Source: Strigamia acuminata (taxonomy: Eukaryota). Taken from it: a stretch of DNA of 64,000 bases. A program made the translations under genes and the position numbers. Below the pieces are notes generated by a model that was not told the origin of the DNA, did not search any database, and was given only the letters and a program-made list of their open reading frames with translations. Below are positions 19,491 through 53,200 of the stretch, in pieces (positions within the stretch are counted from its first letter, which is position 1; every line of letters begins with the position of its first letter). The stretch is from the NCBI GenBank assembly GCA_949358305.1, contig OX442314.1, positions 29,636,001-29,700,000 on the forward strand. The letters are read 5' to 3'.

Positions 19491-21120
19491 ATGTTGCGAG
19501 TTAAACCTATCAGAGCTGTTAGGCCTACCAATATTTACGTCTACAGATGCATCAGCGAAAAGAAACGAACGAAGAAACCAACAAGAGATGCGACACAAAC
19601 TGAACCTCAAATTTCGTTTCTGGGATTGCATAAGTTATACGATCATTCTCACAGTCTATTTTCAAAAGTGTTGTGGTCTGTGATCGTTTTAAGTTGTTCT
19701 ACGAGTTGTTTGTACCAAATTTTCACCCGTGTGAGCTTTTTTCTCGAAGGTTCGGTCACGCTCGATGTTAAGTTGAGACCGCAAACATCGTTCTTCTTTC
19801 CTTCGATCACTTTATGCAATTCGAATCTGCTTCATCTAATGTTGGTTTTGAGTTCTGGGAATCCGACAGAGCAGGTTATTGGCAATCAAACCACTGATTT
19901 AACCGATACAAACAGTTTGTGGAATACAGTGGGAAGAATCCCTCATGAAAACATACGCATGTATTTATTGGTAAGTGAAATTAATAATATATCGAATGGC
20001 TGGTGTTTGGTTGACATTTTATTTGGTTTTAATTAGTGCAAAGATGAAATGAGCAACGACTGCACAACACCAGTTGCTGACTTAATGATAACTGATTATG
20101 TGAATACTTTATATGGAAGTTGTCTGATGCTCACTATGAGTAATATATTACATTATAATTACATTATGTTACCGTAAAATACTGGAGGTGTTTAATTGGG
20201 GATTAATACTTATTTAATTGTAGAAAAGAAAATGGATTACAGAGGTCCACACACTTATGTCAAGTTGCTCTTGAACACTATTAATGCATTTTTTGCTTTT
20301 TCGGTTAATACTCAATTAATTGTAAGATGTTACACAGCAATATGGCAAAGAAAGATTTTATATATTCAACTATGATTGGATATTTTTAGTTCTTTCTTCA
20401 CAGTGATTCATTCAAGCATGTGCATGATGGTTTAATAGTAGCTGAAAATGCCCAGACCGGTTATTTTACAAAATTTCGAATATATGCAAAAGAGGTAGTA
20501 GAAACGACATAATAATGATATATAATATTATTATTATTACACAATATATTTTAGTTTGAAAATTTAAATTTGCGTCAAAATCCGTGCGCACCAGCAGAGG
20601 AAGTCGACACATGTCTTAATAATTGCATCGATAAAATATTACGTAAGAAGTTAAACTGCCAGTAAGAAAACAATATAAATGCATATAAAAAAATATTTTT
20701 TATTACAAGGTATTTTGTTTTTTCTTTATCAGATTACCATTTATCAATTCTACATTACCAGCGTGCACAAACATTCGTCAAATTCTTGATGGGTATTGGT
20801 TAACTTTGAACATGAGTGTCCACATGGCGAAAACACTCGAAGATTGTAAATGCAAACGAAAATGCACCAAGATGAAATACATAGTGAACAAAGACACTCA
20901 GCGAATTAACGAGAACGTTAACGAAGCAAAATTGCAATTACTCTACGCGGACGACATACACGAAACGTTAATCGAGCGGGAAATGTTCCCGCTTTCAGAA
21001 TTACTCAGTGATATTGGAGGAACCGTTGGCGTATACCTTGGAATAAGCATTTTTACAATTACTGAACTAATAAGTTCTCTACTCACACGTACAATTTCTA
21101 AGATTAAACACTTACGATAA
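19491..21120 (+). CDS. DEG/ENaC paralog 2, ~426 aa; exons 19491-19970, 20037-20139, 20224-20321, 20390-20494, 20555-20661, 20733-21120
   Basis: FPSITLCN, TLYGSC, thumb cysteines, LLSDIGGTVGVYLGISIFT; internal exons 103/98/105/107 nt as in the other paralogs. Confidence 0.92.
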
Positions 21121-21625
21121 AATTTTCTATTTTTGAAAAAATTACGATGGCCCTTCTGGGCCACCATAGTATAATGTGTCAATAAATAATCACAGCACGC
21201 ACTTATGATGGGTGATGTTATAAATTGAGTTGTGTTGAATAATACTTGTATTATACTAATAAAATAATTCATGTGTGCAAATATAGGGATGATTGATCTA
21301 AAAATCCTTAAAATAATTTCACACGGGCATTAAAAATTTAATGGTTAATTAAGTGATGTCGGTGTTGTCTAATAAAATATTGTGTATTGCCATGGTTGTC
21401 AAATTACTGACTACAACGTAAAAAGTAATCGTTTTAAATTGATTTTCCTCATACAGAGTGTCGACTACAAGTTGTTTAATCACATTTTGCTGGCCAACTT
21501 CCTCTTGTAAATTGTCTTTTAGGAATTTTACGACTTCGTCTTGGTTAATGCGGCACTTAACGGTAATCAATATACACCGCATTAAATATTAACCAACTTT
21601 GAATATCGTGTAGATATCTTTAGAT

Positions 21626-23244
21626 ATGCGGCGATACGAGCGGTCCCTGGCTTGGCATCCTGTTAGAAATTACGTCTTCAGATCGGGCAATGAGGAAGAA
21701 AATGTCGGACGAGTTTTACACGACAAACAAGCGCAACGAATTCCAATTCTGGGCTTAAACAAATTCTACGATCGTTCGTACAGTCCGTGTTCGAAATCCT
21801 TATGGTTTCTAATTGTCGTGTGTTGCTTCACTTGTTGCTTCTACCAAGTTTCTACACGCGTCAACTTTTTCCTTGAAGGCTCAATTATACTCGAAGTTAA
21901 GCTGACACAACAAACATATTTCTCGTTTCCATCAATTACTTTATGCAATACTGATTTGATTAATCTAATGATGAATTTGTATGATAAGTGGAAGGTAAAA
22001 GGAGGAGTTATTAGCAGCCAAGATGATGAAATGAACGATTCTAACAAATTGTGGGACACAGTGGGCAAAATCGGTGATGAAGACATAAAAGTGCATCTAT
22101 TAGTAAGTAATATTAGTAATGTAGAATATCAAAATCGATCTTAATTTTGGTTTTATCAGTGCGAAGACGAAGCGAGCGGCGCCTGTAAGAAACCAGTTAC
22201 TGAATACATGCAAACTGAAACTGTGAAAACGTTATATGGAAGTTGCCTGATGCTTACTATGAGTAATAATTTAGATTACATTAATGCAAATGTTTAATTA
22301 ATGATTAATACCTATTTAATTGTAGAAAATAAAATGGTGTTTAGAGGTCCAAGCAGTTTTATCAAGTTGTTCGTAAACAGTTCCAACTCAATTTCTAATG
22401 CAGTTTATAAACCTCACTTATCTGTAAGATATTCTAGAAAATTTTACTAAGGACAATTTTATACAGTGTGTATCAAATTGTTGTAGTTTTTTCTTCACAA
22501 TGATAAATTCAAGCATGTGCATGACGGCGCACTAATATCTGAATACGCCAGAATCGGCGATGCTACAAAGTTTCGTATCCATGCGAAAGAAGTAAGATAA
22601 AGAGAATCACAAATCAAATTTTCGATTTACTTATAAGTGTGAAGAGATTATATTCTACATACGTATGTTTTAGTTTAGAAATTTAAATTTGCGTCGCGAT
22701 CCGTGCGCACCAGCAGAAGAAGTCGACGCGTGTCTTAATAATTGCATCGACAAAATACTACAGGAAAAATTAAATTGCGGGTAACAACGATATCCTTTTT
22801 TATCGATCCTGATGCGATGTGTTTTGTCCTTTCTTTCCCAGATTGCCATTTATCAATTCTACAGAATCGCAGTGCATCAACCTGCAAAACATTTTTAATA
22901 ATTATTGGGACGCTTTTAACGTTAGTCTCCACGCGGCGAAAAGTATGGACGATTGTAAATGCAAACGAAAATGCAACGAGATTAAATACACATTGGACAA
23001 GGATAGTGAGCGAAATTACAACGTCGATAACGTAACACTGTTGCAATTGTTTTATGCCGACGACACGCTTGAAACGTTAGCAGAGCGGGAAAGGTTCCCG
23101 CTTTCACAGTTTCTAAGTGATATTGGCGGTACCATTGGCATATACCTTGGCATAAGCGTTTTCACAATTGTCGACCTTATTCGCTTCTTACTCACACGTT
23201 CAATTTCTCAGATCAATCACCTACGACGAAGCACTAAAAAATAA
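21626..23244 (+). CDS. DEG/ENaC paralog 3, ~430 aa; exons 21626-22102, 22160-22262, 22326-22423, 22487-22591, 22674-22780, 22842-23244
   Basis: FPSITLCN, TLYGSC, FLSDIGGTIGIYLGISVFT; same exon sizes and phases. Confidence 0.92.
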
Positions 23245-23801
23245 TTTGCAATGCAGCGAAGTTTCAGGGGTTGCTTTTGAGCGCGAGTGTTAAAACAACA
23301 GATAAAGCTCACACACCGGCAGTAAACAATGAGATTCGCTATCAAACTAAAATTTACTGTATAATTATTAATGAATAATCACAACACTTATTTATGATGT
23401 TATAAATTGCGTCGTATTGAATAATATGTGTATTATACCAGATTACTCACGTTGATTGATCCACAAATTCTCAAAATAATTTCACACTGGCATTAAAAAT
23501 TTAATGGTCAATTAATAAGGGCGGCCGGTGTTGTCTAATAAAATATTAGTGTTGCCATGGTTGTCAAATTACTGACTTCAACGTAGACGTAATCGTTTTA
23601 AATTGATTTTCCACACACAGGGTCGACTGTAGTACGTTTTTTAATCACATTTTGCTGGCCAACTTCCGCTTGCTCTTAAACTTCCACCTTATTTCTTTTT
23701 TATATGAATTTTATGACTTTGTCTTGTTTAGACAGTACAAACGGTAATCGATGCCTTAGTAAACACTCGCCAAACTTAGATATCCTGTTATATCTTTAGT
23801 C

Positions 23802-25452
23802 ATGCAGCGATATAAGCGGTCACTGGCTTCTCGTCCTGGTCAAATTTACGTCTTCAGGGCGCAGAATAAGAGAAAAAATGTCCGACCACGAGTTGCACAC
23901 GAAAAACAGGCACAACGAATTGCTATTCTGGGATTAGACAAATTCTACGATCGTTCGTACAGTCAATATTCGAAATGTTTATGGTTTGTAATCGTCGTGG
24001 GTTGCGTCGCTTGTTGTTTCTACCAAATTTTCACACGTTTGAGTTTGTTCTTCGAAGACGCCGTTACACTCGAAGTTAAGTTGACACCGCAAACATATTT
24101 CTCGTTTCCGTCAATCACTTTGTGCAATACAGATCTGATTATCCAAATGTTGAATTGGTATTATGAGTTTGGACTACGTCAAGTCAATAGCACTGGAAAT
24201 GTGGAAATAAACGTTACGAACAAATTGTGGGACACAGTGGGCGTGATCGGTAATGAAGACGTAAATGTATATCAATTGGTAAGTAAAGTTAGTGATACGG
24301 AATGTGAAAAAATTGCTATTTATTATGTTTTTTCAGTGCGAAGAACAAACGAGTGGGAGCTGTATAAAGCCATCTACTGACTACATGAAGACTAAATCTG
24401 TAAATACTTTAATTGGAAGTTGTCTGATGCTTACTATGAGTAATAATTTACGTTACAATCACTAAAAGTATTCCCAAAATGTGTTTAATTATTGGTTAAA
24501 TGCCTGTACTGTATTTCTAGAAGAGAAAATGGTCTACAGAGGTGCAAATACTTTTATCATGTTGTTCGTAAACACAGCCAACGCAGTTTATAATCCGTTA
24601 TTTGATTCTAAATTAAGTGTAAGGTGTTTTATAAAAAATATAGTGTATACCAAATTATTATATTTGATATTTTCTAGTTTTTTCTTCACAATGATACGTT
24701 CAAGCATGTGCACGACGGCGTAATAATGGCGGAATACGCCAGTATCGGTAATACTACAAATTATCGGATATATGCGAAAGAGGTAAGGTCGAAAACCACA
24801 AAATAAAAAAGAAAATCACATTTTAGAATAACGCGTAAATTAAATAAAAGATTTTTACATACTTTTAAAATTAAAATTTTATATTTTAAATATTTATCTT
24901 TTAGTTTAGAAATTTAAATTTGCGTCGCGATCCGTGCGCGCCAGCGGAAGAAGTCGACACGTGTCTGAATAATTGCATCGACAAAAACCTACAGGACAGG
25001 TTGAGTTGTGGGTATACAACAACTAACAAAATATATATATTTTTTATTCAGTCTGTTGACAAGTGTTTTATTTTTTCTTCGCTAGATTGCCGATATTCAA
25101 TTCTACAAAACCACAGTGCACCAACATGAAGATGATTGAAACATTTTGGAATGCGTGGAATGAGAGTCTCCACATGGCAAAGAGTCTCGAAGATTGTAAA
25201 TGCAAACGAAAATGCAACAAGATGAAATACACACTGTACAACGATAGTCGGCGAAGCAATAACAACAACAACGACACACGATTGCGATTAGTTCATGGGG
25301 ATGACGCGCTTGAAACGTTAATAGAGCGCGAATTATATCCGCTTTCGGCTTTACTCAGTGACGTTGGAGGAACCGTTTGCATTTACCTGGGCATAAGCGT
25401 TTTCACAATTTTTGATCTTACTAGCACTTTAGTCACACGTTCAATTCTTTAA
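23802..25452 (+). CDS. DEG/ENaC paralog 4, ~418 aa; exons 23802-24278, 24337-24439, 24521-24618, 24678-24782, 24905-25011, 25086-25452
   Basis: FPSITLCN, TLIGSC, LLSDVGGTVCIYLGISVFT; same exon sizes and phases. Confidence 0.92.
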
Positions 25453-26125
25453 TAATATCGTGCACGCATTGGTGAATGAGGTTTTAGGCATAGATCTTGG
25501 CCTTGTGATTTTGTACTTGGAAGCAAAGATACAAAAATGGCGCCCAACTTGGTCTGGCGTGGTAGACTATCGAGCGGATACAGATTCATCATGTGATGTG
25601 AAGGGAATTGAATTGACTTGTGGAAACTCAATTGATGGACTGGCCTGCAGTTGGTCAGTGGATAAAGTTCAACCAATTGAGGTCATTTTTCACTCGGATT
25701 TAGGTATAGATCGGCTGAAGTAGCGAAAGCGGTTGAGCTTGCAAAGATGGCGCCCCAAAACGTAAACAAAAGAAAGATGTCCTATTTCTATTAATTGCGA
25801 CTTTCTTAAAAATGTCTTATTTTTCATTTTAATTGTACACTGACCCACAACTCCATTAAATCTATTAAACAACGACACTGCGGATTAATAGCGCACTAAT
25901 TGGTGGTAATAAAACGTGCAATTTTTGTCTAATAATAAAATATTGCTATTATCAAGATCATTATTTTAAATTGATGTTCAACAAACAACTTAATAATATA
26001 CTTTGCCGCACGACTTCCTCCCGTTTTTTATTTCGCAATTTGTCTTTTAATTGATGACTCTCAGGCACGAAACGTAGGCTTAATAACTCACAAGCACACA
26101 TAAATTTTCATCAGTCATTTGTAGA

Positions 26126-27916
26126 ATGGACCTGCAACCTAAACGGTTCCCAGCAACACGTCGTGGCAATATGCAAATCCGCACATCCAGCCAGGAAAAC
26201 GAAACACCCGAAAAACAAACCGAGCAATTTCATTTTCTGGGATTGAGCAAATTGAACGATCGGTCTTACAGCCCGTTTTCAAAATGCCTCTGGTTCGTTA
26301 TTGTCGTCGTTTGTTGCAGTAGTTGCTTCTACCAAATCATTACACGCGTTGGAATTTACCTTGACGGTTGTACCACCCTTGAAGTTACATTGACACCGCA
26401 GTCGTCTTTCTTCTTTCCTTCAATCACCTTATGTACTGATAATCTATTTTTACTAATTTGGGCATTGTCCGATAATATGACTGGTGATGGACAGTTAGTT
26501 GGCGATAAAAACATTCACTTTAGGGGTGCTAGTACTGACAAATTGTGGAGTACAATGGGGAAAGTACGACTCGAGGACTTGAGCGCCCATATTTTGGTAA
26601 GCTTAGACTTTAATTGATTAAGTTTGTCACGTATTGACAGTAGATAATTTAATAAATTTTGCGCATATTTTGCGCTCTTTTCCATATTTTGTCCCATTTT
26701 GATTGAAAATTGTTTTAATTTCTTCAAGTGATTTTTCGAAAACATTGTTTGAAGTCGATACATGACGTGACAAGTTCTGTTAAATATTACGGAGTATTTT
26801 TTAATGATATTTTGTTTTTGCCAGTGCATTAATGAAATATCCGGTGGTTGTACACAACCGGTTGCTGAATTAATGGAAACTGTGTACGTGAATACAATTC
26901 TTGGAAGTTGCTTGGTGCTGACTATGAGTAACTTTTTGTACTAGAATAAACTAAGGAGTTTAAATTACAAAATTCTGAAATTGTAGAAAGCAAAATGGAT
27001 TACAGAGGACCACACACAAACGTAAAATTGTTTTGGGACGTTGTTGAAACATCCTACAAACCCAACGTTCCAAATGGGATTACTGTAGGTTTTAACTTAC
27101 AAAAACATGTAATGAAACAATTTTATAACTGTAAAATTTATTGTTTTCTCGTAGTTTTTTCTTTACGGTGATACATTTAAGCATCAACACGACGGAATGA
27201 CAGTTGCTGAAACCGCCCTTGTCGGTTATTCAACCAAATTTCGAATTTACGCCAAAGAAGTAAGTGTGCACGAAATGCATCTTTGAAATTCTTAGAAAAT
27301 CGATTAAATGAAAAGGAATTTTATTTTAGAAAACAAACTTTTTGCTATTTCAGTTTAATAATCTAAATGTGCATCCAAATCCTTGTGCACCAGCAGAAGA
27401 AGTCGTAAAATGCCTTAATAATTGCGTCGAAGAACGATTATTGAGAAACCTCACTTGTCGGTATAATCACTGATCCACACACTCATACAAAATTAAGTTT
27501 ATTTTAACTCTGCTTTCTATTATCTTTTAACCAGATTCCCGTTCTTCAATTCTACATTACGAAACTGCACTAACACTGAAGAAATTGTCGAGAATTATTG
27601 GTGGGCATGGAACATAATCGGTAAAACAGCCAAACACAGTGAACCATGTCGATGCAAACGCAAATGCAACGAAATAAAATACAAATTACTCAAGGATACT
27701 CAAAGAGAGATCGATAACGCGACCGGTACAATTTTGCGTTTACTGTACGCAGACGAGACACACGTAACTCTAACGGAGCGGGAAATGTTCACGATGTCGG
27801 CATTGTTCAGTGATATTGGCGGAGCCATGGGTGTATACCTCGGCATAAGCATTTTCACCATTTTCGATCTTATTACTTTTTTAGTCCGACGTTCACTCAG
27901 TAAATCTCTGATTTAA
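26126..27916 (+). CDS. DEG/ENaC paralog 5, ~421 aa; exons 26126-26596, 26825-26927, 26987-27084, 27155-27259, 27354-27460, 27535-27916
   Basis: FPSITLC, TILGSC, LFSDIGGAMGVYLGISIFT; same exon sizes and phases. Confidence 0.92.
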
Positions 27917-33750: not shown

Positions 33751-34264
33751 TTAAAATTCGGTATTTGGCGATTTTGGCACAATCATTGTGTTTTCCTCGC
33801 ATTCCTTACATTTTGTGCTGTCTTAAGTGCCTGTTGTTAAGTTGTTGTCATTTTTCTCAAAGATGAATCTTGGATGAGGCTCAAAATATCAAGTGTCTTC
33901 TAGTTGAGTCAAACCAATCGTTTGCAAGAGTAAAGAATTTCTTAGTACTTTCAAGAAATAAAAAAAACTAACCTGTGGCATTTTTAAACTTAGCTTCTAA
34001 AGCTCAACTTTTATCTTAATTATATTACAGCTTAGGCAATAAATGTTGTTTAACTATAGGCTTGTCCAATTAATTTAATATTTACTAGTACTTAAAAGAA
34101 AAACCAGGTGGAGGGCTTGACCTCTACTTATGGTCTAGCCCGAGACCTGACCCCCAGTCCAATTTTACTAGCCAAGTTCTCCACACGTGATTTTTCGCGT
34201 TCAAGAAAATTTTGGCTATTTTTTAGTTTTATATCGCTTTTTTGCACTTTGACTACCTTTTACG

Positions 34265-35852
34265 ATGAGCCCTACTAAAGTTAGAGGTAAGAAGACAGCA
34301 GATGACTCTTTAAGCTCCAAAAAAGCACGACCACCGCGTGGTCGCACCAACACCACTAAGCCTATCACCACCACCACGCGTGTTGAAACTCACCACGAGC
34401 CCATCGCGCCGCCTTCCTCGTCCCAATCGAGGATCCTATTAGATGGTTCCATCGTTCCCACACCATCAGATGAAACGATAGAACGCCTTGACGAATCTTT
34501 TGGAAACGATGATGTACGGGATCCGAGAGGGCCCGACTTTACCGCCTCGCAAGTCGCGAATAGTCAGGCGCCCGACTTGGGACTTTCTTCCCAGGCCATC
34601 GAGAAGCTCATCTTTATGGCTTTCTCGCAGAATCAGACAGGTGGGGCCCCTCTTCAGCGGGAGGGGTCTACCGAATTGCCAAAAATGTCTCGATCTCGTA
34701 GAGACGAGTGGGGCACATTTCAGTCTGAAAATCAAGTAAGTAATTCTCATGCGGAATTGTAGATAAAATTCTCACTCTTGTTACTGACTGGTTGTAGTCA
34801 GATGTTTCAGAGTATGATTCCGACCGTTCGTCACGCTCTAGCTCGTCAGACGATGAGCGAGAATTTTCCGCAAGACTGTCTCGTAAGGACCGTGAAATTA
34901 TACGTCTCCGACGAGAACTCGAGAAAAGGGACAAACCGCACGCCAAATCGCGAAAATCGCCGTCTCGAAAGGACGAGGAATCCGACCGATCGTCGGACGA
35001 CTCCGATGATCTCGAAGAAGATGCGCCTTTTCTCCACGAATCGTCCGCCAAGGAAATAGTTCGAATTTTGAGCAAACCAGTTTCGACGGCCAAAAATAAC
35101 AGTTTTAAGGCCGATTTTCCGTGCCCGACTCGACAGGTTCCCTTTTTGAAAAAGAAGAAAATGGACGAAGATGTGGAGGCCTATGTGGGGGCACGAAACA
35201 CGTCCTTTTCCATTCCGCGAGAACGTTTTTTGCGTCGCTTAAACGGCATGATGGCGCGCGTTGGGTCGATTACGGCAAGAATCTACGATCGTTCGTCAAC
35301 AAACGACCCCATGAACAAAGACGAATTGCTTTACGCCAACAAAGCCATTTTTCAACAAGTTCGAAATGCTATGAACGCAATTAGCGACGAACGACGTTTC
35401 AATGTCGTTCAAGGTTTGGGTACGAAGAAGTCCGACATGGTGAAGCATTTTCGAAATTCGGAGGGAGACACTCTTTTTCAAGGGCAATTTTTTGAGAGAT
35501 TCAGTAACCCATATTTTCGATACAAAAAATTTAAGAGCCTTACAACTTATTGTTTTTCCTTGCAGAAAAGCAAGCCGACCAATTCGCATCAGTGGACAGA
35601 GCGAGAAGTAAAAATCCCGCGAAGGGTCCTCGTCGCGATAATCGATTCCGCCGTGGTTTTAGTCGCCCCGTCGAGAGTTTTCAGCGCAGAGATTATTCCC
35701 ACACACGACCGGACGACAGAGATCAGAGTAGAAGCTTTCGTAACCCGGATTACAACAAAGGGCAGCAACAGCCCTTTCGTAAAAACCCCTTCCCCAGCAA
35801 CCGGGGAAGGGGTCGTGGCGGCTTCACTAGAAACGGTAACGGCTTGGTGTAG
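34265..35852 (+). CDS. gag: DIRS Gag, spliced (34265-34735, 34798-35503, 35566-35852), ~487 aa
   Basis: Introns 34736-34797 (gtaagt...tactgac...tag) and 35504-35565 (gtaacc...ttccttgcag) join three segments in frame; ends in an RG-rich tail (NRGRGRGGF). Confidence 0.78.
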
Positions 35853-37960
35853 CCACTTTTCCTTTCCTGACGCCTGTCTTTCATCTGGACGTTTACCCCT
35901 TTGTCACGACACTTGGTCCTTTATCACCTCAGATTCTTGGGTTCTTGATACGGTCAGAGGGATAAAATTGGAATTTTTAAGTCCACCTATTCAATCAGAA
36001 TTTCGTACACCAGTTTTCGATCAGATTAAACATGAACTAATCAGGGAGGAGGTTAAGGCCATGATCCTTAAAGGGGCCGCTTATTCGGTTCTTCCTTGCC
36101 AAGATCAAATAATTAGTTTTCTTTTTCTAGTTTCTAAAAAAGATGGCGGTTTTCGGCCTATTATTAATCTTAAACCCCTCAATTCCTTTTTGGTTTTCAA
36201 CCATTTCAAAATGGAGAATATTCACACCGCCTTGTCTCTGGTGGAGAAAGACGCTTTTATGTTTAAACTGGATCTATCTGATGCCTATTTTTCGGTGGCC
36301 ATACACCCAGAATCTCGAAAATTTTTGAGATTTTTCTGGGAAGGTGTTCTGTATGAACTAGGAGTGCTTCCCTTTGGTTTAGGTCCCGCTCCCTTTTACT
36401 TTACAAAATTGTGTAGAGCTGTAGCAACTTTCCTTCGATCTCTTTACGTTCGGTTAGCAGTCTATTTAGACGATTGGTTTTTTATAAATAAATCTCACGA
36501 ACTTCTTACACGACAGAGGGATTTTGTTTGCCTTCTTTTTCGCGCTCTGGGTTTTATCATTAATTTGAAAAAATCGATCCTTGAGCCCACTACTTCGATT
36601 ACCTTTTTAGGCTTTCTAATTGATTCAGTTTCTATGAGCGTCTCCTTGCCACCAGACAGAGTTCAGAATATTCTTTCCTCCCTCGAAGACTTGCTTCAAT
36701 CAGAAACCTGTTCTATACGAGAACTGTCTTCTATTATCGGCAAACTTAACGCCACAACAATTGCCATTTCCTCTGCGCCCCTACATTACCGGGGACTGCA
36801 ACATTTAAAAGCCCGTAATTTCACCGGAAATTATGAATCCACATGTTTTATAACAGAAGAAGCTAGGTCAGAGCTTTTATGGTGGAAACAAAATTTGAGA
36901 TTTTGCAAGGGCAGATCTCTTCTTCCTAAACCTTGTCTCTTATGCTTTGATTCCGATGCCTCCCTAACAGGATGGGGGGCAACTTCTTCAGGCGTTAGTA
37001 TAGGAGGCTCCTGGCCCTCTCCCCTTGTTAAGAAACATATCAATGTTCTTGAACTTTTAGCTGCATTTTGGGGTCTCAAGTCTTTTGCTAAGGATTTATC
37101 CGATAGTATAGTTAAGATTAGAATGGACAATACTGCAGCGATTGCCTCCATTAATCATCTGGGCAGCCCCAGATCCCGAGACCTTACTGCCGTAGCACAA
37201 GACCTTTGGTCTTGGGCTATGGAAAGGAATATCTCTGTTCAAGCGGAGCACATCCCGGGTCGCCTCAATATAGAAGCGGACGCGGCCTCTAGGGGTAAGA
37301 TCGTAGACTCAGGTGACTGGATGTTGAATCATAAGGTCTTTCACTCCATTGATCAAATTTGGGGTCCCTTTTATTTAGACCTTTTCGCGGCAATGCATAA
37401 TGCGCAATTAGAAAACTTCTTTAGCTGGAAGCCCGACCCTGCTGCTCAGGCCTTTGATGCCTTAGTTCAGGACTGGGGATCAGGAATTTCTTACGCTTTT
37501 CCTCCTTTTTGCCTCGTTCCAAAATGCCTTCAAAAAATCCGCAATGCTTCGACACCTACTCGAATAGTTCTGATCACCCCGATTTGGCCTAGCCAAGCTT
37601 GGTTTCCGGTAATTCCACATTCAGGAAATTTGTTCTTTTCTTTCTACTAAATCGAGATTTATTTTTCAGCTTCTCTGGTCCCTATCGACGGAATCCCCGA
37701 TACGGTTGCCCCAACTCCCGAATCTTTTGACGAATGCGCTGAAACAACCCCATCCGCTTCTCCTAGCGCGATCCCTGCAGCTGGCCGCATGGAAACTGTC
37801 ATCGGTTCCCTCGGAAACGGAGGTCTTTCAACGAACGCTTCCAAATTGGTGGGGTGTTCCTGGCAGTCCTCATCAAATAAGATCTACGACGGACACTGGA
37901 AGTCTTGGCTCCACTGGTCTACACGAAACAATGTTGACCCTGTTCGCCCATCTGCCATAA
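35068..37960 (+). CDS. pol: DIRS RT-RNase H-methyltransferase-like protein, with intron 37609-37669; probably made as a Gag fusion
   Basis: GRL...WSFITSDSWVL, KKDGGFRPIINLK, KLDLSDAYF, YLDD, DASLTGWGA, HINVLEL, DLFA, YAFPPF; removing the 61-nt intron restores WFP|LLWSL...LPQLPNLL...HP...LAAWKLS. Confidence 0.9.
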
Positions 37961-38760
37961 AGTTGGCAAATTACCTTTCTTCTCTTTTTACTGATAATTT
38001 TGCGCTTAGCACAATAAATGCCCATCGTTCGGCTATTTCTCAGACCATCAGTTTAGTTTCTTCAATTGATCTAGGTTCTCACCCACTTATCAGGCGCGTC
38101 ATGAAAGGCATCGCAAATTCGCGTCCACAAATTCCGAAATATTCCTCCATTTGGCATGTAGGCCCGGTTCTTCTCTTCCTTAAGTCACGGTTTCTTTTAC
38201 TTCCTACCTTCTCCAAGTTAGAGATTAATCGTCATATCGCCACACTCTTGGCCCTTTCCTTAGCAGGAAGGGCTTCAGATCTCAAACTCTTATCATCCAA
38301 AGTAGTTTTTTCAGCTAACTCTTGTGTTTTTCCTCTCCTAGGAAAGAGAAAATCCTCCTCTACAGTCCCTTTCGTTCTACCCCGTTTCGAGGACGAGGAA
38401 TTATGTCCGGTCGAGGCCATTAAATTTTATTTAAAACACTCAGCCGCTTTTCGCGGATCCTCTCTTCAATTCTTTTTGGCGTCCTCACGTCCTTTTGGAC
38501 CGGTCACTTCTTCCACTATTGCCAGGTGGATCAAGGAAACCTTGTCCATGGCAGGAGTAAACACTGCTATTTTTTCGGCCCATTCTACCCGTGCAGCCGC
38601 CACTTCCTTTGCTTGGTCAAAAGGAGTTAATTTATCTCACATCCTTCGAGCGGCAGATTGGTCCTCTGCCTCGATATTTTTCAAATTTTATAATCATCCA
38701 GTCGAGAGAATTTCGACTGATTTTACTTCTACTGTTTTAGAGGCTACGAAGAGCCTATAG
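37789..38760 (+). CDS. DIRS tyrosine recombinase, 323 aa
   Basis: RSAIS, GRASDL, LCPV, HSTRAAA, W...FFKFY (R-H-R-Y pattern); overlaps the MT C-terminus in another frame. Confidence 0.93.
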   Translation: METVIGSLGNGGLSTNASKLVGCSWQSSSNKIYDGHWKSWLHWSTRNNVDPVRPSAIKLANYLSSLFTDNFALSTINAHRSAISQTISLVSSIDLGSHPLIRRVMKGIANSRPQIPKYSSIWHVGPVLLFLKSRFLLLPTFSKLEINRHIATLLALSLAGRASDLKLLSSKVVFSANSCVFPLLGKRKSSSTVPFVLPRFEDEELCPVEAIKFYLKHSAAFRGSSLQFFLASSRPFGPVTSSTIARWIKETLSMAGVNTAIFSAHSTRAAATSFAWSKGVNLSHILRAADWSSASIFFKFYNHPVERISTDFTSTVLEATKSL

Positions 38761-38857
38761 TTAAACAACATTTATTGCCTAAGCTGTAATATAATTGAAT
38801 ATTTTGCTAAGTTATGACGCAAAATATGAATTATATAAAGAGGCAATAAATGTTGTT
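38752..38857 (+). repeat. Internal complementary region (ICR) of the DIRS element
   Basis: Reverse complement of the joined right end (...AAAATATTCAATT) and left end (ATATTACAGCTTAGG...). Confidence 0.93.
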
Positions 38858-39914
38858 ATTTCCCACCCTCATTTGGATTTTATGTTTTTGGTTGATAGAT
38901 ATCTTGACCACCCTAACAACATTTGTTTATGGTTTTTTATTGTATTTTCAGATCGCCAATAAAGTCGATCCGTCACCTCTCCTTGATGTTTTCAGTAAAT
39001 AAAGTTTTATTTCTGAAACTACTTGTTTTATTCCTCAGTTCCTTAAAATTGGACTGGGGGTCAGGTCTCGGGCTAGACCATAAGTAGAGGTCAAGCCCTC
39101 CACCTGGTTTTTCTTTTAAGTACTAGTAAATATTAAATTAATTGGACAAGCCTATAGTTAAACAACATTTATTGCCTCTTTATATAATTCATATTTTGCG
39201 TCATAACTTAGCAAAATATTCAATTTCAGTGCGAGTTGGTTAATAAAAGTGAAGTTACTACTTAACGTTATTTTTGTGTACTGATGGACAAACTAGACTG
39301 ATTACAGTACTCCCAAGTTTGCTTTTAACCCATTTACTGTGAATTTTAGAATTAAATTAACCTAGAGTTGCATTTATTACTGTTAAAGGACTACTAAGCA
39401 GGAGAGTTAATCATCCTACATCACTGTTAATGACATGAAAAAGCAACTTGTTCTACCACAATCACTACTAGCCTACTACATTTGGTTCTTGTAATTTGGC
39501 GCAAACACATTCAAAGTGTCTGTCTAAATGGTTTTTGTGTTTCTATAAACATCTAAAACAGATGACATACATTACAAACGTGTGTTATTACAAAGAGTCC
39601 CCTACATGCAAACATTCGAGTTACGAACTTTAAGATGGACAAACTTCAAATTTTGCAACGGCGCATAAGTTAGTTTGCATGTCTAGCACTGTATGCTAGC
39701 TGTTGTACGGTCGTGGACAAAAAAACTTTCCCTCAGTTTAGCTGTTTTAATTTTATCTACCAGGTGGCATGAAAATCCATTGAGATTCAATGACATCAAT
39801 CTTGTCCCGGTCTCTCGTCTTGCCCTAACAACAGTATTAAAAAAAATGACGACAATTAACCCTAAATTAAACCTAAACTATATGGTTAGGTTAATATTAG
39901 TGTTAGTATTAGTG

Positions 39915-47214: not shown

Positions 47215-50200
47215 TATAGTGTTTAAATTTCAAAGTACACCAATATATCGGTACCAAGGTTTTTCTTGTAGTGTTCTGGCAAACATTTTGCTAACATTTT
47301 GCACATGTGTCCAAAATAATCCTAAAAGGCTACAATGAACTTATTTATTGTTGTTTTTTTGTACATTTTTTACCTGGGAATAAAAATGGCACGTGTCCAT
47401 TAAAAGAACAAACGGACTGCAATCCTACTGTAATATTTTTCACTTACTGGACCAGTTACAATAGTTTCAAGTTTTTCCCATAGATGACTCTTCCAAGCGT
47501 AAGCCACTCAACGGTTCAGCTTTGGCCTTCCTTTTAACAGACGAAGCAAATCGTCTATTTGCAATCTGACTCGGTGCAACTGCATGTGGAGGCAGTGTGT
47601 TTCTTGCATTTGTCCGTGAGCTGGGGGTCTATTTAGGGCCCTTCTTTCCTTTGTGACAGAGAAGCTTTCTCGTTGACGTCATCACTAAATAAAAGCCCAT
47701 ATATGTTCGGAATGAGTCAAAAGTTAAAATGATTTTAGACATTACATTTAAATTAAATGTTAAAAGAAAAAAAAGTTTTTACGAAATTCCTTTTTAATCA
47801 GAAGTGCAATTAATGAATTGAGTTACTTTTTCTGTTAGGCATCGGCAAACTGTCTAACAACTGTAAATTAGAATAGACGTGTTCATAATTACACTTCATT
47901 GTATCTCAGCTTGTCATATGGAATCTTGGAAAGTTTAATGCTGATTGAAGACAGTTATAATTAAAATTAATTGAGTTACAAACATTAAATTTCAAAATTT
48001 TAATTAAAAAAAAATTAAAAAGTTGAAAACAAGAAAAATTAGTTGAGATTTCTTAGAAGAAGTGGAATGCCAAAGGTAAATGTTTAGGGAATAGTTAAAA
48101 GTAGACTGTGCGTAAATTCAAGCTGAAACACACAATTTGTATCGATTAATAGAATTTCTGCGAAGTACCGATTTCTGTTAAGTATTTATTTATTTTCTTT
48201 TAATCAACAACTGGGGATAAATTAAGAAGAATTTTTTTCTGAATTAATTGTTAGTTTGAGCAGTCTAATTTCATCAACGCCATCTTTTATTAAAAATCAC
48301 AAGTTGTAGGGATGTCTTTTCCTGTTGGTAATAATTTTCCCACTATCCGATGAAAATTAGTGGAATCTTTTTGCGTGAATAGAACTAGTTTTAGCTCTTA
48401 TTCAATCATTCCTTACTTAAAATTTTGCAATTAATCAATTCTATTTACTATATACATTTTGCGGTTATTCAACTGAATTCATTTATTACACATTTATTCA
48501 ATGCGCGTGTGCTTAATTATTACACTGCGCTACAAATTGATTTTGCTATTACTCAATTTAGCTGCAGGTATGTAACCCCGGCCTTAGGATTTGTGGCACC
48601 CAAATATGGGCCCTCCTAGATGTAAAATTATTTCAATTTTTTGGTCACTTGAAGCACGGGCCCTAACTCTAATACCTTGTTTGCACCAGAAAGTTTGGGC
48701 TAGCCCGAAGTTTAAATCTGGTTCTGGCATGATATTGGCTTAAAAAGTTCAGGCTAGAGCGTTCGCACCCAAAAGCAAAAAGCCCCATACCTAGGATAGC
48801 ATGTTGCCAATAGACAATCAACTTGTTACATGTTACACATGTTACAACATGTTACACACAGAGTTGTGGAAAGAATCTTAGCAGTTATCTAGTTCAGACA
48901 ATTGGATTAGGATAATCTAGTTTAAAAAATTGTTTGAAATGCAATAAGGTATTGCGGATAAAATAATTAAATCCCTGAATAACAATGCTTATTTCAAATT
49001 GAAATGTAATTTTTGTGAGAAATAAAGAAGCATGACTTTTCTACTCAAAAACTTCCTCAAGACTAAACTTTATTCTTTTCAGAACAGTGGTAATTAAAAA
49101 TACAAAGAAACAAATGACAAATACTCAGTGCTACAGGGTAAAGCGCACGGAGTAAAGATGACGCGTTCCAAGGGGGAACGCGAGATAATTGCTAACACCT
49201 TGCAAAGGTGAGTGAATTCTCAGAAAAGCAAAGGAAAAGGTTCAAGTTAAAAAGTAACAACTTCAAATTAAATTAAATACAACTTTGAAGGAATTTAAAT
49301 AAACACAGTCAAAATTAATAACATATCAGAATATCAAATTATTTCAAACAATGAACAAAATATAATAATAACATGTAAAAGCGTGTCGGTTTTCACACTG
49401 CCGGGGGCACGGGACCAGAATGAATCTCCATTTTTATTAGTCGTTGAACTGGTCGCCTAAATTTGTTGCCATTAGGCATTAACAACTCACATGAGCGCGT
49501 TACACCATCCTTGCTCGGATGTATACTGATGACACGTGCCATCTTCCAATTAACTCTTGATTTCAATAAATCTTCCACTAACACTACATCTCCTGCCTGA
49601 AGCTGACTAGTATTTGGTTTTCCCACTTGCTTTTTTAAGTCAACCAAATACTCACGGGACCATCGTTGCCAAAAGTCTATTAGAATACTTTTCCATTGGC
49701 GGATAAACAATTGCTGAGTTGGTTCGTTCGATACAGCGTCTTCAGCAGATGGCAAACTTGTCAAACTGGTCCCCGTCAAAAAATGAGCTGGCGTGAGCGC
49801 TTCGGGTTCATTTGGCGCGTCGTAGATGTAGGTAATGGGTCTTTTGTTGATGATGGCTTCTACCTGGGTAAGCAAAGTTTCAAGTTGAAAGAAGTTGAGA
49901 GAGGCTGATCCTATCGTTTTTTTTAAACAAGATTTGACAGTTTGAATCATCCTCTCCCAAAATCCTCCCCACCAAGGAGCGTTCTCAACAATAAATTTCC
50001 ACTCAACCCCTTTTTGAGTTAGGAAATTGCGTACGGAGTCGTCTCTTGTATTTTGCAGTAGAGCACACAGTTCACGGTTCGTACGATGGAACGTCGTCCC
50101 GTTGTCGCTGTAGATGGTCCTAGGCATTCCACGTCGACTGATGAAGCGTTCTAGCACGCCTACGAAATCTGAAGTGGTTAGTGACGGAATCAGTTCTAAG

Positions 50201-53200
50201 TGCACTGCTCGGATATTGGCGCAGGTGAAGAGGGCGATGTATGCCTTCGTCTTCCTTCCACGTACGATGATTGGGCCTGCGAAATCGACTCCGGTTATGG
50301 CAAATGGGCTGCATTGTGACACTCGATCAAAAGGTAGCTGTCCGGGCACCTCTCTCATCAATCGTCCATTTATTCTTTTGCAAGTCACACATTTATTTAG
50401 GATCGTTTTCAAGGTTCTCCTTGCGGCTGGCGTCCAATAATTCTGACGGAAATATGCCAGGGTGGCTGTCAAACCGCAGTGGAAAACCTGAGAATGCGAA
50501 AACGATAAAATTAATTTGGTGAGTGCGTGATCGGACGGGAGGAGCACGGGGGCGTTTGCAGTGATGGCGTCCTTGGAGTTCCTGAGTCGAGTGTCTAACT
50601 TGAGTACACCGGAAACGTCCAAAAAAGCTTTTAAGTTTTGTAGTTTTGAGTCGGTCAACGGCTTTTCGTTTTGTAATCGTGTCATCTCGGCTCCGTAACA
50701 CTCTCGCTGTGCAGCCCGGATCAGTGTCATCTCGGCTCGCTTGAGTTCGGTGACGGTTAGTGGTCCTTGGATTTTTTCTGAGGTGTCAGTAGTTCGTGTA
50801 TTGGCTGCGAATCTCAACATCCAAGCTGTAACGCGTCGTAATCGACTGAACGAGCTAAATTTAGAGAAAATAAATTCAGTGTTAATAATTTGGAGGGATT
50901 CGACGTGTGTCTTGATGTCGTCCTCATCCGATTCGTCTGCTATTTCCACCTCCGCGTTCGGCCAGTCGACAAGAGGGCCTCGCATCCATTCTGGTCCGTT
51001 CCACCACAGCTGGTCGGTCATCAATTCGTCGACCGTTAAACCGCGTGTCAAGCGGTCAGCAGGATTGTCGATGCCCGGTACGTGACGCCAATTGTCTATT
51101 TTTGACTTTTCGCGGATCTCCAGCACTCTATTCTGTATGAATGTCGGTGGCCTTTTAGCTGTGTTGCGGATCCAATGTATGCATATTTGGGAGTCAGTCC
51201 AGTAGTGTATTTCACGGCAGCTCGTCACTTCTTTAATTTGGTCGGCCATGCGGACTGCTACTAAAGCTCCCATTAGTTCCAATTTTGGCAATGTTAATGG
51301 TTTGACTGGCGCCACCCTACATTTAGAAAAAATAAAGAACGAATTGATTAAGTCTTCCGTGGTGTCTTGAATGTAGGCGACAGCACCGTACGCCTTGGGG
51401 CTTGCATCGGAAAAAATATGGATTTCGCAGTTCATTTCATTTTTCACTCCCAGCCATCTTGGAATTTGGAATTTGCTCAATTTTTGGATTTGTTCTGCCC
51501 ATTTAGTCCAGTTGATTCTAAGAGCTTCATCCAATATTTCATCCCATTCCAATTTTCTTAGCCAAAGTGATTGGAAAAATATCCTGGCGGTGACAGTGAA
51601 TGGTGTGACGAATCCGAGTGGGTCGAATATCTGGGCGGAAATTTGGACTACTTCTCTCTTCGTCACTGTTTTGCTGTTTACGCTTGAAATGTTTTCAATT
51701 TGTAAACTCAGTTTGTCCGAAGTTGGGTCCCACTTCAATCCTAGTACTTTGGATTCTTCATTTGATGTCACATTTGCATCTGTAGGATCTTTTCTTCTGA
51801 ATATTTCGCGTAGTTCAGGAGAATTAGTCTGCCATTTTACTAGTTGCATGCCAGCTGATGAGAGCATTTCGCGAGCTTGTTCGAATGTCTTCACTGCTTG
51901 GTCAATGTCGTCCACCGACGTGATCAGATCGTCCACGTATAAAAATCGACAAAGTAATTCGTACGTGGCGGGATATTTGTCTTTATAAATTTTGATGTGA
52001 CGTTTGATGGTCGCGTTTAGTAGGAAGGGGCTGGGTGCAGCGCCGAAAAGAACACGTGTTTGGCGTAGTATTCGAATTTTGGCTCGTCTCGTTCCGTCCC
52101 AGTCTGCGCAGACCCATAGAAAACGTGTCACATCTCGATCTTTGACTTCAATTTCGATCATGTGGAATGCCTTGCGAATATCCGATGTCTCGGCGATTTT
52201 TCGGAGTCTAAATTTCATCAATACAACAATTAGGGATGGCAGAAAATTAATACCTTTAGATAGGCAATCGTTTAGTGATAGCCGTCCCTTCCGATGGGCT
52301 GACGCGTCGAACACGATCCTCAGTTTTGTTGTGACTCGCTCTTCTTTTATTATTGGCCTGTGTGGCATGTAATAAATTGGGTTGGACGTGTCTCCAGTCA
52401 CTTCTTCAACGATGCCTTGTTCCAGCTGTTCCTCGATGACTTTCTTGTACTCTAGGTATAAGTTGGGTTGTCGTCGGAATTTTCTGAGCAGGTTCAAGAA
52501 GCGTTGTTCGGCAACTGCAAAGTTGTCTTCGAGCTCGTTGCTGTCGACGATCCACGGCAACGCCACCGAGTAGTTCTTTCCCGTCCATCGGATTGACTCG
52601 TCAAATTTGCGTAGAACTTCAGTTTCGTCTGTGTCCGCCATTGACTCGTGTTGGATTCCGATGGCCTCCAATTCCCAGAGTTTCCTCATGATGTCATCTG
52701 TGGATTGTACAAGGGTGATTTTATTTGTTCTCACCGTTGTTGCAAGGATGTGTGTGCCGTTGGTTGTTTGTCCATGCAGTGTCCACCCAAAGTTTGTGTT
52801 GACCGCTATTAAGTTGTCTTCGATGAATTCAGTTCTCTTGGTTGTAATTTTCCAGTAGTTGTCGACTCCTATCAACAAATCCACCTCGTCGGAATGTAGA
52901 GCTACCTGTTTGCATGTCACTTGGACTCCTTTTCTTTCCAATTTTTTGCTTAGGTATTCATTCGGGACTTCGCAGGGTGTTGACGTCACGTGTGCGATTT
53001 CTATGGCTTCGATTGTAATACGAGGCGTCTTGGCGTGCGTTGGAGTGAGAGTTAATTCCACCTTGTTGTGAACTCCTGTCGTCGGCTCGCGACCAAACAC
53101 GGATAAAGTCATTTGCTCAGTTCCTATAATTTTTAGATTCAATTTTCGCGATAATTCAGCTCTTATGAATGTCCGTTGTGCCCCGCCATCGACGTAGCAC

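What the first reader, a model, noticed from the sequence alone, without database searches (positions are those of the whole stretch)
34018..39225. Complete DIRS1 retrotransposon that retains three spliceosomal introns
Seen: GT-AG introns of 62, 62 and 61 nt (34736-34797, 35504-35565, 37609-37669), host-like in size, with branch-like TACTGAC/TACTAA in introns 1 and 3. Introns 1 and 3 contain in-frame stops; removing intron 3 restores the typical DIRS MT tail (WFP|LL...LP..PNLL...HP...LAAWKLS). ITRs match perfectly and ORFs are intact, so the copy looks recent. Established: retrotransposition normally purges introns; retention is known for Penelope-like and a few YR elements. Inference: the element replicates from unspliced RNA and translates spliced RNA.
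Basis: partly seen in the sequence, partly recalled or inferred. Interest (0 to 1): 0.85.

Follow-up and report, generated by a model that had tools for sequence, protein, structure and literature searches.

The report
Animal DIRS1 retrotransposon that keeps introns
A complete, recently inserted DIRS1-type retrotransposon in an animal genome carries three short host-like introns that every sequenced copy keeps, so it likely copies itself from unspliced RNA while its full proteins would be made from spliced RNA, which is unusual for elements that replicate through RNA.

Summary
Window 34018-39225 is a complete DIRS1-type element: perfect 134-nt inverted-repeat arms, an internal complementary region, gag, RT/RNase H/methyltransferase and tyrosine recombinase.

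- **Intron 3:** removing it rejoins the conserved methyltransferase tail with zero gap in 65 of 67 homologues that match both sides.
- **Introns 2 and 3:** their length varies between copies (62/61/72 nt and 61/62 nt), while the flanking exons show no indels and change mostly at third codon positions.
- **Intron 1:** it links the only start codon to a selected reading frame that has no ATG of its own for 121 codons.
- **Host fit:** size and base composition match introns modelled in neighbouring host genes (57-82 nt).
- **Copies:** DNA contigs from three runs cover all three segments uninterrupted. A subfamily about 10% diverged also has intron 2. No intron-less junction was seen. An empty-site allele shows the insertion is recent.

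No RNA data were available, so splicing itself is inferred. The idea that retaining intron 2 gives Gag-Pol is rejected, and how Pol is reached stays open. Introns are already reported for kangaroo-1 and Penelope-like elements, and this scan has noted intron-bearing tyrosine-recombinase retrotransposons in other genomes. I rate this a new variant of a known kind.

The parts
34018..34167 (+). Left inverted terminal repeat. The outer 16 nt are unique to this end and begin with AATT.
   Evidence: Arm 34034-34167 is 100% complementary to 39044-39177. 34018-34062 is 100% complementary to the ICR at 38752-38796. Other copies diverge into unlike flanks just before 34018 (table 7).
34265..34735 (+). 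gag exon 1: ATG plus 157 codons of a low-complexity N-terminal part.
   Evidence: ORF. GC is 0.52 against 0.35 in the 5' leader. It holds the only ATG able to feed the exon-2 frame.
34736..34797 (+). Intron 1: 62 nt, phase 0, GTAAGT...TACTGAC...TTGTAG.
   Evidence: An in-frame stop follows after 8 codons. The exon-2 frame opens exactly at the intron's final TAG. GC is 0.355. The high-depth contigs X2 rec 10 and X1 rec 1 span it unchanged.
34798..35503 (+). gag exon 2, holding the conserved Gag core. The first in-frame Met is only at 35161.
   Evidence: A profile built from 15 Gag-Pol homologues aligns from residue 73 onward. Between subfamilies, 15 of 18 differences in 35079-35259 are at third codon positions and 15 of 17 changed codons are synonymous.
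35504..35565 (+). Intron 2: 62 nt, phase 1, GTAACC...CTTAC...TTGCAG.
   Evidence: GC is 0.306. It is 61 nt in the main copy of run X3 and 72 nt in the diverged subfamily. All 8 listed indel events lie at 35520-35552, with none in the flanking exons. The Gag profile alignment crosses the junction only in the spliced form.
35566..35852 (+). gag exon 3: basic, Arg/Gly-rich tail ending at TAG 35850-35852.
   Evidence: ORF. It gives weak BLAST matches to the Arg/Gly-rich Gag tails of P0048 and P0006.
35854..37608 (+). pol exon A: RT, RNase H and the N-terminal part of the methyltransferase. It lies in the +1 frame relative to gag exon 3 and has no ATG before its conserved N-terminus.
   Evidence: Pfam RVT_1 E 5e-16 and Dam E 4e-9. 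120 homologues were listed, the best at 47% identity. Between copies, 10 of 12 differences are at third codon positions.
37609..37669 (+). Intron 3: 61 nt, phase 0, GTAATT...TACTAA...TTTCAG.
   Evidence: Read-through stops after 13 codons. Removal gives a zero gap in 65 of 67 homologues. GC is 0.279. It carries a +1-nt variant and one substitution in the X3 copy.
37670..37960 (+). pol exon B: the conserved methyltransferase tail plus stop codon.
   Evidence: It matches 67 of 120 homologues directly after their W(F/Y)P motif.
37786..38760 (+). Tyrosine recombinase ORF, which overlaps the pol tail in another frame.
   Evidence: Pfam Phage_integrase E 7e-7. Between copies, 9 of 11 differences are at third codon positions.
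38752..38857 (+). Internal complementary region: the reverse complement of the left end followed by that of the right end, sharing one AATT.
   Evidence: 45 nt and 65 nt, each 100% complementary.
39044..39225 (+). Right inverted terminal repeat. The outer 48 nt are unique to this end and finish with AATT.
   Evidence: The empty-site contigs join 34017 to 39222 with 4 shared letters in X1, X2 and X3 (table 5).

Best explanation
This is a complete, polymorphic DIRS1-type tyrosine-recombinase retrotransposon whose gag and pol genes are interrupted by three 61-62-nt GT-AG segments that all copies seen retain and that are predicted to be spliceosomal introns, so the family likely replicates from unspliced RNA and would make full-length Gag and the complete Pol only from spliced RNA.

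Shown directly:
- The DIRS1 anatomy is complete: ITRs, ICR, gag, RT/RH/MT and YR.
- The locus has an empty-site allele, with AATT at both element ends and once in the ICR.
- The three segments break the reading frames, and removing them restores conserved protein.
- Each segment is present in high-depth DNA contigs. Intron 2 is also present, at another length, in a subfamily about 10% diverged.
- Between copies the segments tolerate length changes that are not multiples of three, while the exons show none and evolve under purifying selection.

Inferred:
- The host spliceosome removes the three segments from a share of sense transcripts, giving mRNAs for a Gag of about 487 residues and for the Pol tail.
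- The reverse-transcription template is a full-length transcript that has not been spliced.
- Spliced RNA is rarely or never used as template, because no intron-less copy was seen.
- How unspliced RNA is chosen is unknown. Possible routes are slow splicing in competition with element proteins, template signals that lie in or across the introns, or reverse transcription in the nucleus.
- Pol lies +1 to Gag and is probably reached by a frameshift at or near the gag stop codon.
For: - **Anatomy:**
- **Intron 3:** 120 of 120 homologues match exon A and 67 also match exon B. The projected gap at the junction is 0 in 65 of the 67; the other two are -9 and +1. The read-through peptide matches nothing and stops after 13 codons.
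- **Intron 2:** its length is 62 nt here, 61 nt in the X3 main copy and 72 nt in the diverged subfamily. All 8 indel rows lie within 35520-35552 and none lie in 35292-35503 or 35566-35864. The Gag profile scores 23.8 bits and crosses the junction when spliced. Unspliced, it scores 19.8 bits and stops before the junction.
- **Intron 1:** the exon-2 frame is closed by TAG at 34795-34797 and has no ATG until 35161. Yet the stretch just upstream of that Met is under selection: by my count from the listing, 10 of the 13 listed differences in 35079-35160 are at third codon positions. In the diverged subfamily, 34899-35012 is 'same length, diverged'.
- **Composition:** GC is 0.36/0.31/0.28 in the segments against 0.43-0.54 in the exons.
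- **Host fit:** ad hoc models of two neighbouring host genes give introns of 57-82 nt with GC 0.17-0.39.
- **Retention:** contigs bridging I1 (X2 rec 10, X3 rec 17), I2 (X1 rec 4, X2 rec 11, X3 rec 18) and I3 (X2 rec 14, X3 rec 20) are listed. None of the 10 joints listed there removes an intron.
- **Activity:** an empty site is present in 3 of 3 holder runs. Five contigs each in X1 and X2 run from the left end into unlike flanks. Third-position differences are 10 of 12 in pol and 9 of 11 in YR.
Against: - No RNA evidence exists. No junction read, transcript end or strand could be examined.
- Gag is poorly conserved, so the homology support for introns 1 and 2 is weak. The spliced form gains only about 3-4 bits, and gag exon 2 found one hit at E 3.6e-6 among 1.84 billion representative proteins.
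- Intron 1 could not be resolved in the diverged copies; the joints at 34710/34713 to 34768/34780 have unknown letters between them.
- Whether GT and AG are conserved in the diverged copies was not visible, because the difference tables were cut at 40 rows.
- The contigs are short de Bruijn assemblies, so rare intron-less copies could be missed, and depth is not a copy number.
- In Dictyostelium DIRS-1 a sense-oriented marker intron is removed before integration (PMC7192593), so intron loss would be expected. Its absence here is unexplained.
- The host intron sizes come from my own gene models, not from annotation.
Confidence: 0.7

Rival explanations
1. The family spreads mainly at the DNA level. 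The recombinase would excise and reinsert double-stranded circles, or host recombination would duplicate copies, so introns are never exposed to loss. Reverse transcription would play little part.
For: The AATT core at both ends and in the ICR, together with the clean empty site, shows conservative site-specific recombination. Tyrosine-recombinase DNA transposons (Cryptons) do carry introns (PMC13465315, passages read).
Against: RT, RNase H and methyltransferase are intact and under purifying selection between copies, with 10 of 12 differences at third codon positions. The ICR is kept perfect, and in the DIRS model (recalled) its role is to rebuild the ends during reverse transcription. Cut-and-paste alone would not raise copy number.
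Confidence: 0.1
2. The replication template is an antisense transcript driven by the inverted right repeat. The spliceosome cannot recognise the sense-oriented introns in that RNA. Sense RNA would serve only as spliced mRNA.
For: The two repeats are perfect inverted copies over 134 nt, so any inward promoter in the left repeat also exists at the right end, pointing antisense. This would explain why no intron-less copy is seen. Antisense DIRS-1 transcription in Dictyostelium is recalled from memory and was not checked.
Against: There is no transcript data of either strand. The single ICR near the right end fits the sense-RNA model. In Dictyostelium, a marker intron oriented to splice from the element's own primary transcript is lost on retrotransposition, so sense RNA is the template there (PMC7192593).
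Confidence: 0.08
3. The segments are not spliced. These copies would encode truncated proteins and be mobilised in trans by an intron-less or unrelated master element.
For: DIRS-1 reverse transcriptase can act in trans (PMC7192593). Splicing has not been shown here.
Against: No intron-less form appears among the contigs of three runs at 88-90% identity or above. Exons downstream of each segment remain under purifying selection in the frames that only splicing connects. The segments have canonical ends, host-like size and low GC. Two subfamilies both carry intron 2.
Confidence: 0.07
4. Retention of intron 2 is a switch. Spliced RNA would give Gag, and unspliced RNA would read through in frame into Pol as a Gag-Pol fusion.
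For: In the window copy the frame is open from 34798 to 37650, which is 950 codons and runs through intron 2.
Against: With the same Gag tail and the element's own codon usage, the +1 frame stays open in 57% of resamplings. Intron 2 is 61 nt in the X3 copy and 72 nt in the diverged subfamily, so read-through would land in other frames. The X3 copy also has a stop in that frame at 35659-35661.
Confidence: 0.03

Closest known systems
DIRS1-like retrotransposons (Dictyostelium DIRS-1 and its animal relatives)
   Same: Inverted terminal repeats, an internal complementary region, gag, RT/RNase H/methyltransferase, an overlapping tyrosine-recombinase ORF, and no protease or DDE integrase. The Pol protein is 35-59% identical to 120 database relatives.
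   Different: Those relatives have an uninterrupted ORF across the intron-3 site: 65 of 67 proteins, and none of 38 metagenome loci with both flanks has an intron-sized insert. Several encode Gag-Pol as one frame. Here three introns split gag and pol, and Pol is +1 to Gag. None of the open papers I searched describes natural introns in DIRS1-like elements.
kangaroo-1 of Volvox carteri (PAT-like, order DIRS)
   Same: It is a tyrosine-recombinase retrotransposon listed among elements with introns in their transcripts (PMC1636488, passage read).
   Different: As recalled, not checked, it is a green-algal element with split direct repeats and no methyltransferase domain. The original paper was not held, so the number, place and inheritance of its introns could not be compared.
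Penelope-like elements
   Same: They are retroelements described as able to retain introns after retrotransposition (PMC8557442, passage read).
   Different: They have a different reverse-transcriptase clade, a GIY-YIG endonuclease and target-primed integration (same paper). Pfam reported neither a GIY-YIG domain nor any family other than RVT_1, Dam and Phage_integrase here.
Retroviruses and LTR retrotransposons with spliced subgenomic mRNAs
   Same: By general knowledge, unspliced RNA is the replication template and spliced RNA serves translation.
   Different: There the unspliced RNA is itself the Gag(-Pol) mRNA, and splicing removes whole genes. Here the unspliced RNA would give a Gag cut off at about 165 residues and a Pol that lacks its tail.
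Intron-bearing Ngaro-like and PAT-like elements noted earlier in this scan (other genomes)
   Same: They are tyrosine-recombinase retrotransposons with short introns inherited by their copies (unchecked AI notes).
   Different: Per those notes, they are from protists, fungi or unidentified eukaryotes and mostly have split direct repeats. This one is a DIRS1-type element with ITR, ICR and methyltransferase in an animal genome, and it has an empty-site allele.

Membership tests
DIRS1-like group (order DIRS) | Reverse transcriptase plus RNase H of the DIRS lineage | tested here: met
   RVT_1 E 5.4e-16. 597 homologues at E<=1e-10, with the listed ones being DIRS-type Pol ORFs.
DIRS1-like group (order DIRS) | Methyltransferase domain downstream of RT/RH | tested here: met
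   Pfam Dam E 4.1e-9, cut at the exon end at profile position 104 of 169. The tail continues in exon B.
DIRS1-like group (order DIRS) | Tyrosine recombinase in place of a DDE integrase, and no aspartic protease | tested here: met
   Phage_integrase E 7.3e-7. There is no rve or protease hit in any of the six translated parts.
DIRS1-like group (order DIRS) | Inverted terminal repeats | tested here: met
   134-nt arms, 100% complementary.
DIRS1-like group (order DIRS) | Internal complementary region matching both outer ends | tested here: met
   38752-38796 matches the left end (45 nt) and 38793-38857 matches the right end (65 nt), both at 100%.
DIRS1-like group (order DIRS) | Replication through an RNA intermediate | not testable with these tools
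   This is inferred only, from purifying selection on RT and the multi-site copies.
Spliceosomal (U2-type) intron | GT...AG ends, with removal restoring the reading frame and conserved protein | tested here: met
   for I3, for I2, and for I1.
Spliceosomal (U2-type) intron | Size and composition like the host's own introns | tested here: met
   Ten modelled introns of two neighbouring host genes are 57-82 nt with GC 0.17-0.39. These are my own models, not annotation.
Spliceosomal (U2-type) intron | Relaxed constraint relative to exons, including length changes that are not multiples of three | tested here: met
   I2 is 62/61/72 nt and I3 is 61/62 nt, with no indel in the exons. I1 is unresolved.
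Spliceosomal (U2-type) intron | Branch point and polypyrimidine tract | tested here: inconclusive
   TACTGAC, CTTAC and TACTAA motifs and T-rich 3' ends are present. No host-specific model was available to score them.
Spliceosomal (U2-type) intron | Exon-exon junctions in RNA | not testable with these tools
   No listed run is on record as RNA.
Penelope-like elements | GIY-YIG endonuclease and telomerase-like RT | tested here: not met
   Pfam reported only RVT_1, Dam and Phage_integrase. The homologues are DIRS Pol proteins. The element resembles Penelope-like elements only in keeping introns.

The most novel reading that the evidence does not exclude
An active animal DIRS1 family has made host-like introns a heritable and obligatory part of a retroelement. 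It would use two RNAs. One is a sense transcript spliced like a host mRNA for translation. The other is a template that escapes the spliceosome by design: either an antisense transcript from the inverted right repeat, or nascent pre-mRNA reverse-transcribed in the nucleus. The introns would then both survive copying and disguise the element from surveillance of intron-less transcripts.
Probability: 0.12. Interest if true: 0.9.

Novelty: new variant of a known kind. Interest (0 to 1): 0.6.

Why it matters
Copying through RNA is expected to erase introns. That expectation underlies how processed pseudogenes and retroelements are recognised. It is also the principle of the intron-marked retrotransposition assays used on DIRS-1 itself (PMC7192593).

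This family is young, polymorphic and under selection, yet it keeps three introns through diversification. It therefore offers a tractable animal case for asking how a retroelement separates its template RNA from its messenger RNA. It also lets one ask whether introns help mobile elements pass as host genes.

Two practical points follow. Gene predictors and transposon annotators that assume intron-less retroelement ORFs will call such copies broken. The intron-3 site is absent from all sampled relatives, so this also documents intron gain inside a retrotransposon.

Tried and rejected
- **RNA:** no RNA holder was listed for the element, so expression and splicing could not be examined. Run X6 held next to nothing.
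- **Whole genome:** none is held for this window, so copies were surveyed only through contigs of runs X1-X3.
- **Intron-2 retention as the Gag-Pol route:** rejected.
- **A 58-nt GT-AG candidate at 35740-35797:** it would shift gag into the pol frame. I did not adopt it, because a more diverged contig lacks the GT (loose end at 35769).
- **Gag homology:** gag exon 2 gave one weak hit among 1.84 billion representatives. BLAST of gag exons 1 and 2 against the 120 Pol homologues gave nothing.
- **Host gene homologue:** the 'longer' search found none. My first gene-model script skipped small exons and was replaced. The models for genes C and D remain poor and were not used.
- **Metagenome relatives:** the single-protein scan found none. 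Alignment A1 was too diverse for the tool. The smaller alignment A2 gave 80 loci, none with an intron at the I3 site.
- **Other sequence checks:** Rfam gave no match at E<=0.1. The three introns show no significant similarity to each other or to the rest of the window.
- **Earlier scan notes:** nothing by place or by sequence.
- **Literature:** seven searches found no open paper on natural introns in DIRS1-like elements. Duncan et al. 2002 on kangaroo is not held. The Goodwin and Poulter papers were not available and may bear on novelty. No supplements were consulted.
- **Intron 1 in the diverged copies:** unresolved; the joints have unknown letters between them.

Full report
**What is there.**
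- Window 34018-39225 is a textbook DIRS1-type element.
- The two ends are inverted repeats with a 134-nt arm that is 100% complementary (34034-34167 against 39044-39177).
- The outermost 45 nt on the left and 65 nt on the right are each 100% complementary to an internal region at 38752-38857. This is the internal complementary region expected of DIRS1.
- Pfam finds RVT_1 (E 5e-16) and a Dam-type methyltransferase (E 4e-9) in 35854-37608, and a phage-type integrase (E 7e-7) in 37786-38757. It finds no protease and no DDE integrase.
- Only one copy lies in the window.
- The host is an animal. The element sits beside a tandem array of amiloride-sensitive sodium channel genes and among two Gypsy, one BEL/Pao and one Copia element.

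**The three segments.**
All are GT...AG.
- Read through, intron 1 stops after 8 codons and intron 3 after 13. Intron 2 is open.
- GC falls to 0.355, 0.306 and 0.279, against 0.43-0.54 in the flanking exons.
- No annotation was available, so I modelled the neighbouring host genes with a simple script. The two models that agree with each other in protein alignment have ten introns of 57-82 nt with GC 0.17-0.39. 'Host-like in size' therefore holds, with the caveat that these are my own models.

**Intron 3.**
- A search with pol exon A returned 597 relatives at E<=1e-10. The best 120 were listed, with a top identity of 47% over the full length and 57-58% for two partial centipede proteins.
- All 120 match exon A, and 67 also match the 96 residues of exon B (37670-37957) at E<=0.01.
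- In 65 of those 67, exon B starts at the very next residue after exon A ends. The other two give -9 and +1.
- Of the 53 without a BLAST match to exon B, 5 end before the junction. A few run into other sequence. By eye, most of the rest continue straight after their W(F/Y)P motif with the same pattern.
- The read-through peptide matches nothing.
- So 61 nt have been inserted at a point where every relative is continuous. Unless they are removed from the RNA, Pol loses its conserved tail.
- In 80 related loci from metagenome contigs, 38 had both flanks. None had an intron-sized insert there: 20 had 0 nt between, 14 had in-frame shortenings of 6-30 nt, and 4 had small frameshifts.
- Intron 3 is therefore a gain in this lineage.

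**Copies and their variation.**
- No whole genome is held, so I used DNA contigs of three runs of the same organism label.
- In X1 and X2 the interior contigs have about 11-14 times the k-mer depth of the flank contig. Five contigs in each run lead from the left end into unlike sequence. The family is therefore multi-copy, although the tool warns that depth is not a copy number.
- High-depth contigs span each segment with 0-1 differences: I1 by X2 rec 10, I2 by X1 rec 4 and X2 rec 11, and I3 by X2 rec 14.
- None of the 10 joints listed removes a segment.
- The X3 main copy carries a 1-nt deletion at 35524 (intron 2) and a 1-nt insertion at 37663 (intron 3). These are the only two indels listed between 34265 and 38760 (12 of 13 indel rows were shown).
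- A second laying at 88% likeness revealed a subfamily about 10% diverged (X1 rec 5 and X3 rec 20). All of its listed indels, 10 inserted letters in 7 rows, lie at 35520-35552 inside intron 2. There are none in 35292-35503 or 35566-35864.
- Intron 2 is thus 62, 61 or 72 nt, and intron 3 is 61 or 62 nt. These lengths do not respect the reading frame, while the exons never change length.

**Selection on the exons.**
- Between subfamilies, 15 of 18 listed differences in 35079-35259 fall at third positions of the exon-2 frame, and 15 of 17 changed codons are synonymous. Read in the other two frames, 0 are synonymous.
- In pol, 10 of 12 listed differences are at third positions; in the recombinase, 9 of 11.
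- These lists are the best-supported rows of tables cut at 40 rows, not all differences.

**Intron 1.**
- Gag is poorly conserved. Exon 2 found one hit (E 3.6e-6) among 1.84 billion representatives. The case for intron 1 is therefore mostly internal.
- Exon 1 has the ATG (34265) and runs 157 codons to the GTAAGT.
- The exon-2 frame is closed by the TAG that forms the intron's 3' end, and it has no ATG until 35161.
- The 82 nt just upstream of that Met are nevertheless under selection: by my count from the listing, 10 of the 13 listed differences in 35079-35160 are at third positions (listing).
- Further upstream the diverged subfamily keeps the same length over a 114-nt stretch too diverged to align.
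- A profile built from the Gag parts of 15 long Gag-Pol homologues aligns from exon-2 residue 73, which is before the first Met.
- Translation of this stretch needs exon 1 joined in phase, which the 62-nt removal provides.
- In the diverged copies the intron-1 region itself could not be resolved.

**Intron 2 and homology.** The same Gag profile scores 23.8 bits on the spliced exons 2+3, and the alignment runs across the junction through the conserved LFG..F motif into the basic tail. On the unspliced reading it scores 19.8 bits and stops before the junction. On its own this is weak support. The length variation is the stronger argument.

**A recent, active element.** Contigs in X1, X2 and X3 join 34017 directly to 39222 with four shared letters. 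AATT stands at both element ends and once at the centre of the ICR. This is the pattern expected from conservative recombination between a circle junction and an AATT target. The insertion is therefore polymorphic or private to the assembled individual, which fits the perfect repeats.

**How Pol is reached.**
- After splicing, Gag ends at TAG 35850-35852. Pol is in the +1 frame and has no ATG before its conserved N-terminal motif.
- Several relatives encode Gag-Pol in one frame.
- The attractive idea that retaining intron 2 fuses Gag to Pol fails on three counts:
  - the +1 frame stays open in 57% of synonymous resamplings;
  - the intron-2 length differs modulo three between copies;
  - the X3 copy has a stop in that frame at 35659-35661.
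- A +1 frameshift at the stop codon or an extra splice downstream of 35661 both remain possible. I could not decide between them.

**Mechanism.**
- The simplest account is as follows. The host spliceosome removes the three introns from part of the sense transcripts, and those mRNAs give full Gag and Pol. Full-length RNA that has not been spliced is reverse-transcribed, so the introns are inherited.
- In Dictyostelium DIRS-1, a marker intron placed to splice from the element's own primary transcript is removed in new copies, but non-spliced cDNA is also seen for one cassette position. The authors suggest competition between splicing and retrotransposition factors (PMC7192593, passages read).
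- That makes an unspliced template plausible. It also makes the absence of intron-less copies here a real question.
- The rivals are DNA-level spread by the recombinase, an antisense template from the inverted right repeat, and unspliced dead copies moved in trans. I give each 0.1 or less, for the reasons listed under each.

**Comparison with what is known.**
- Penelope-like elements are described as highly unusual among retroelements for retaining introns (PMC8557442, passage read).
- A 2006 paper lists L1, Tad, kangaroo-1, Penelope and Athena as elements with introns in their transcripts (PMC1636488, passage read). Kangaroo-1 is a tyrosine-recombinase retrotransposon, but the original paper was not held.
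- Seven full-text searches found no open paper describing natural introns in DIRS1-like elements. The fungal DIRS/Ngaro survey does not contain the word intron (PMC3783388).
- The subscription papers by Goodwin and Poulter could not be read.
- This scan has noted intron-bearing Ngaro-like, PAT-like and DIRS-like elements in at least five other genomes (unchecked AI notes).
- I therefore file this as a new variant of a known kind: the DIRS1 type proper, in an animal, with DNA-level evidence that introns are inherited across subfamilies, and with one intron shown to be a lineage-specific gain.

Noticed in passing
window 34014-34021, 38793-38796, 39222-39229: Contigs in three runs join 34017 to 39222 with four shared letters (an empty-site allele). 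AATT stands at both element ends and once at the centre of the internal complementary region. This fits a tyrosine-recombinase crossover in a 4-nt core shared by the circle junction and the target.
   Followed up: partly
window 35662-35886: Pol lies in the +1 frame relative to spliced Gag and has no ATG before its conserved N-terminus. Gag stops at TAG 35850-35852. The high-depth contigs share this arrangement. The diverged subfamily has no indel up to 35864. Candidate routes are a +1 frameshift at the stop codon or a 58-nt GT-AG at 35740-35797. That candidate starts with the same GTAACCC and holds the same TTACAAC as intron 2, but one more diverged contig lacks the GT.
   Followed up: partly
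window 10496-27913, + strand: There is a tandem array of at least five paralogous amiloride-sensitive sodium channel (ASC/ENaC) genes, each about 1.7-1.9 kb. My own models for two of them give short introns of 57-82 nt.
   Followed up: partly
window 1991-9264 (-), 13933-18780 (+), 49393-54108 (-), 54256-58485 (-): Four other retrotransposons have very long open frames: two Gypsy-type, one BEL/Pao-type and one Copia-type. The region is rich in seemingly young mobile elements.
   Followed up: no
window 34038-34043, 38846-38851, and the minus strand of the right repeat: The hexamer AATAAA lies inside the repeat and so recurs on the plus strand at the right edge of the ICR. It could end sense transcripts just after the ICR and before the right repeat.
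   Followed up: no
window 34899-35012: In the diverged subfamily, the acidic, serine-rich part of Gag is too diverged to align yet has exactly the same length (114 nt). It is a fast-evolving but length-constrained linker.
   Followed up: no
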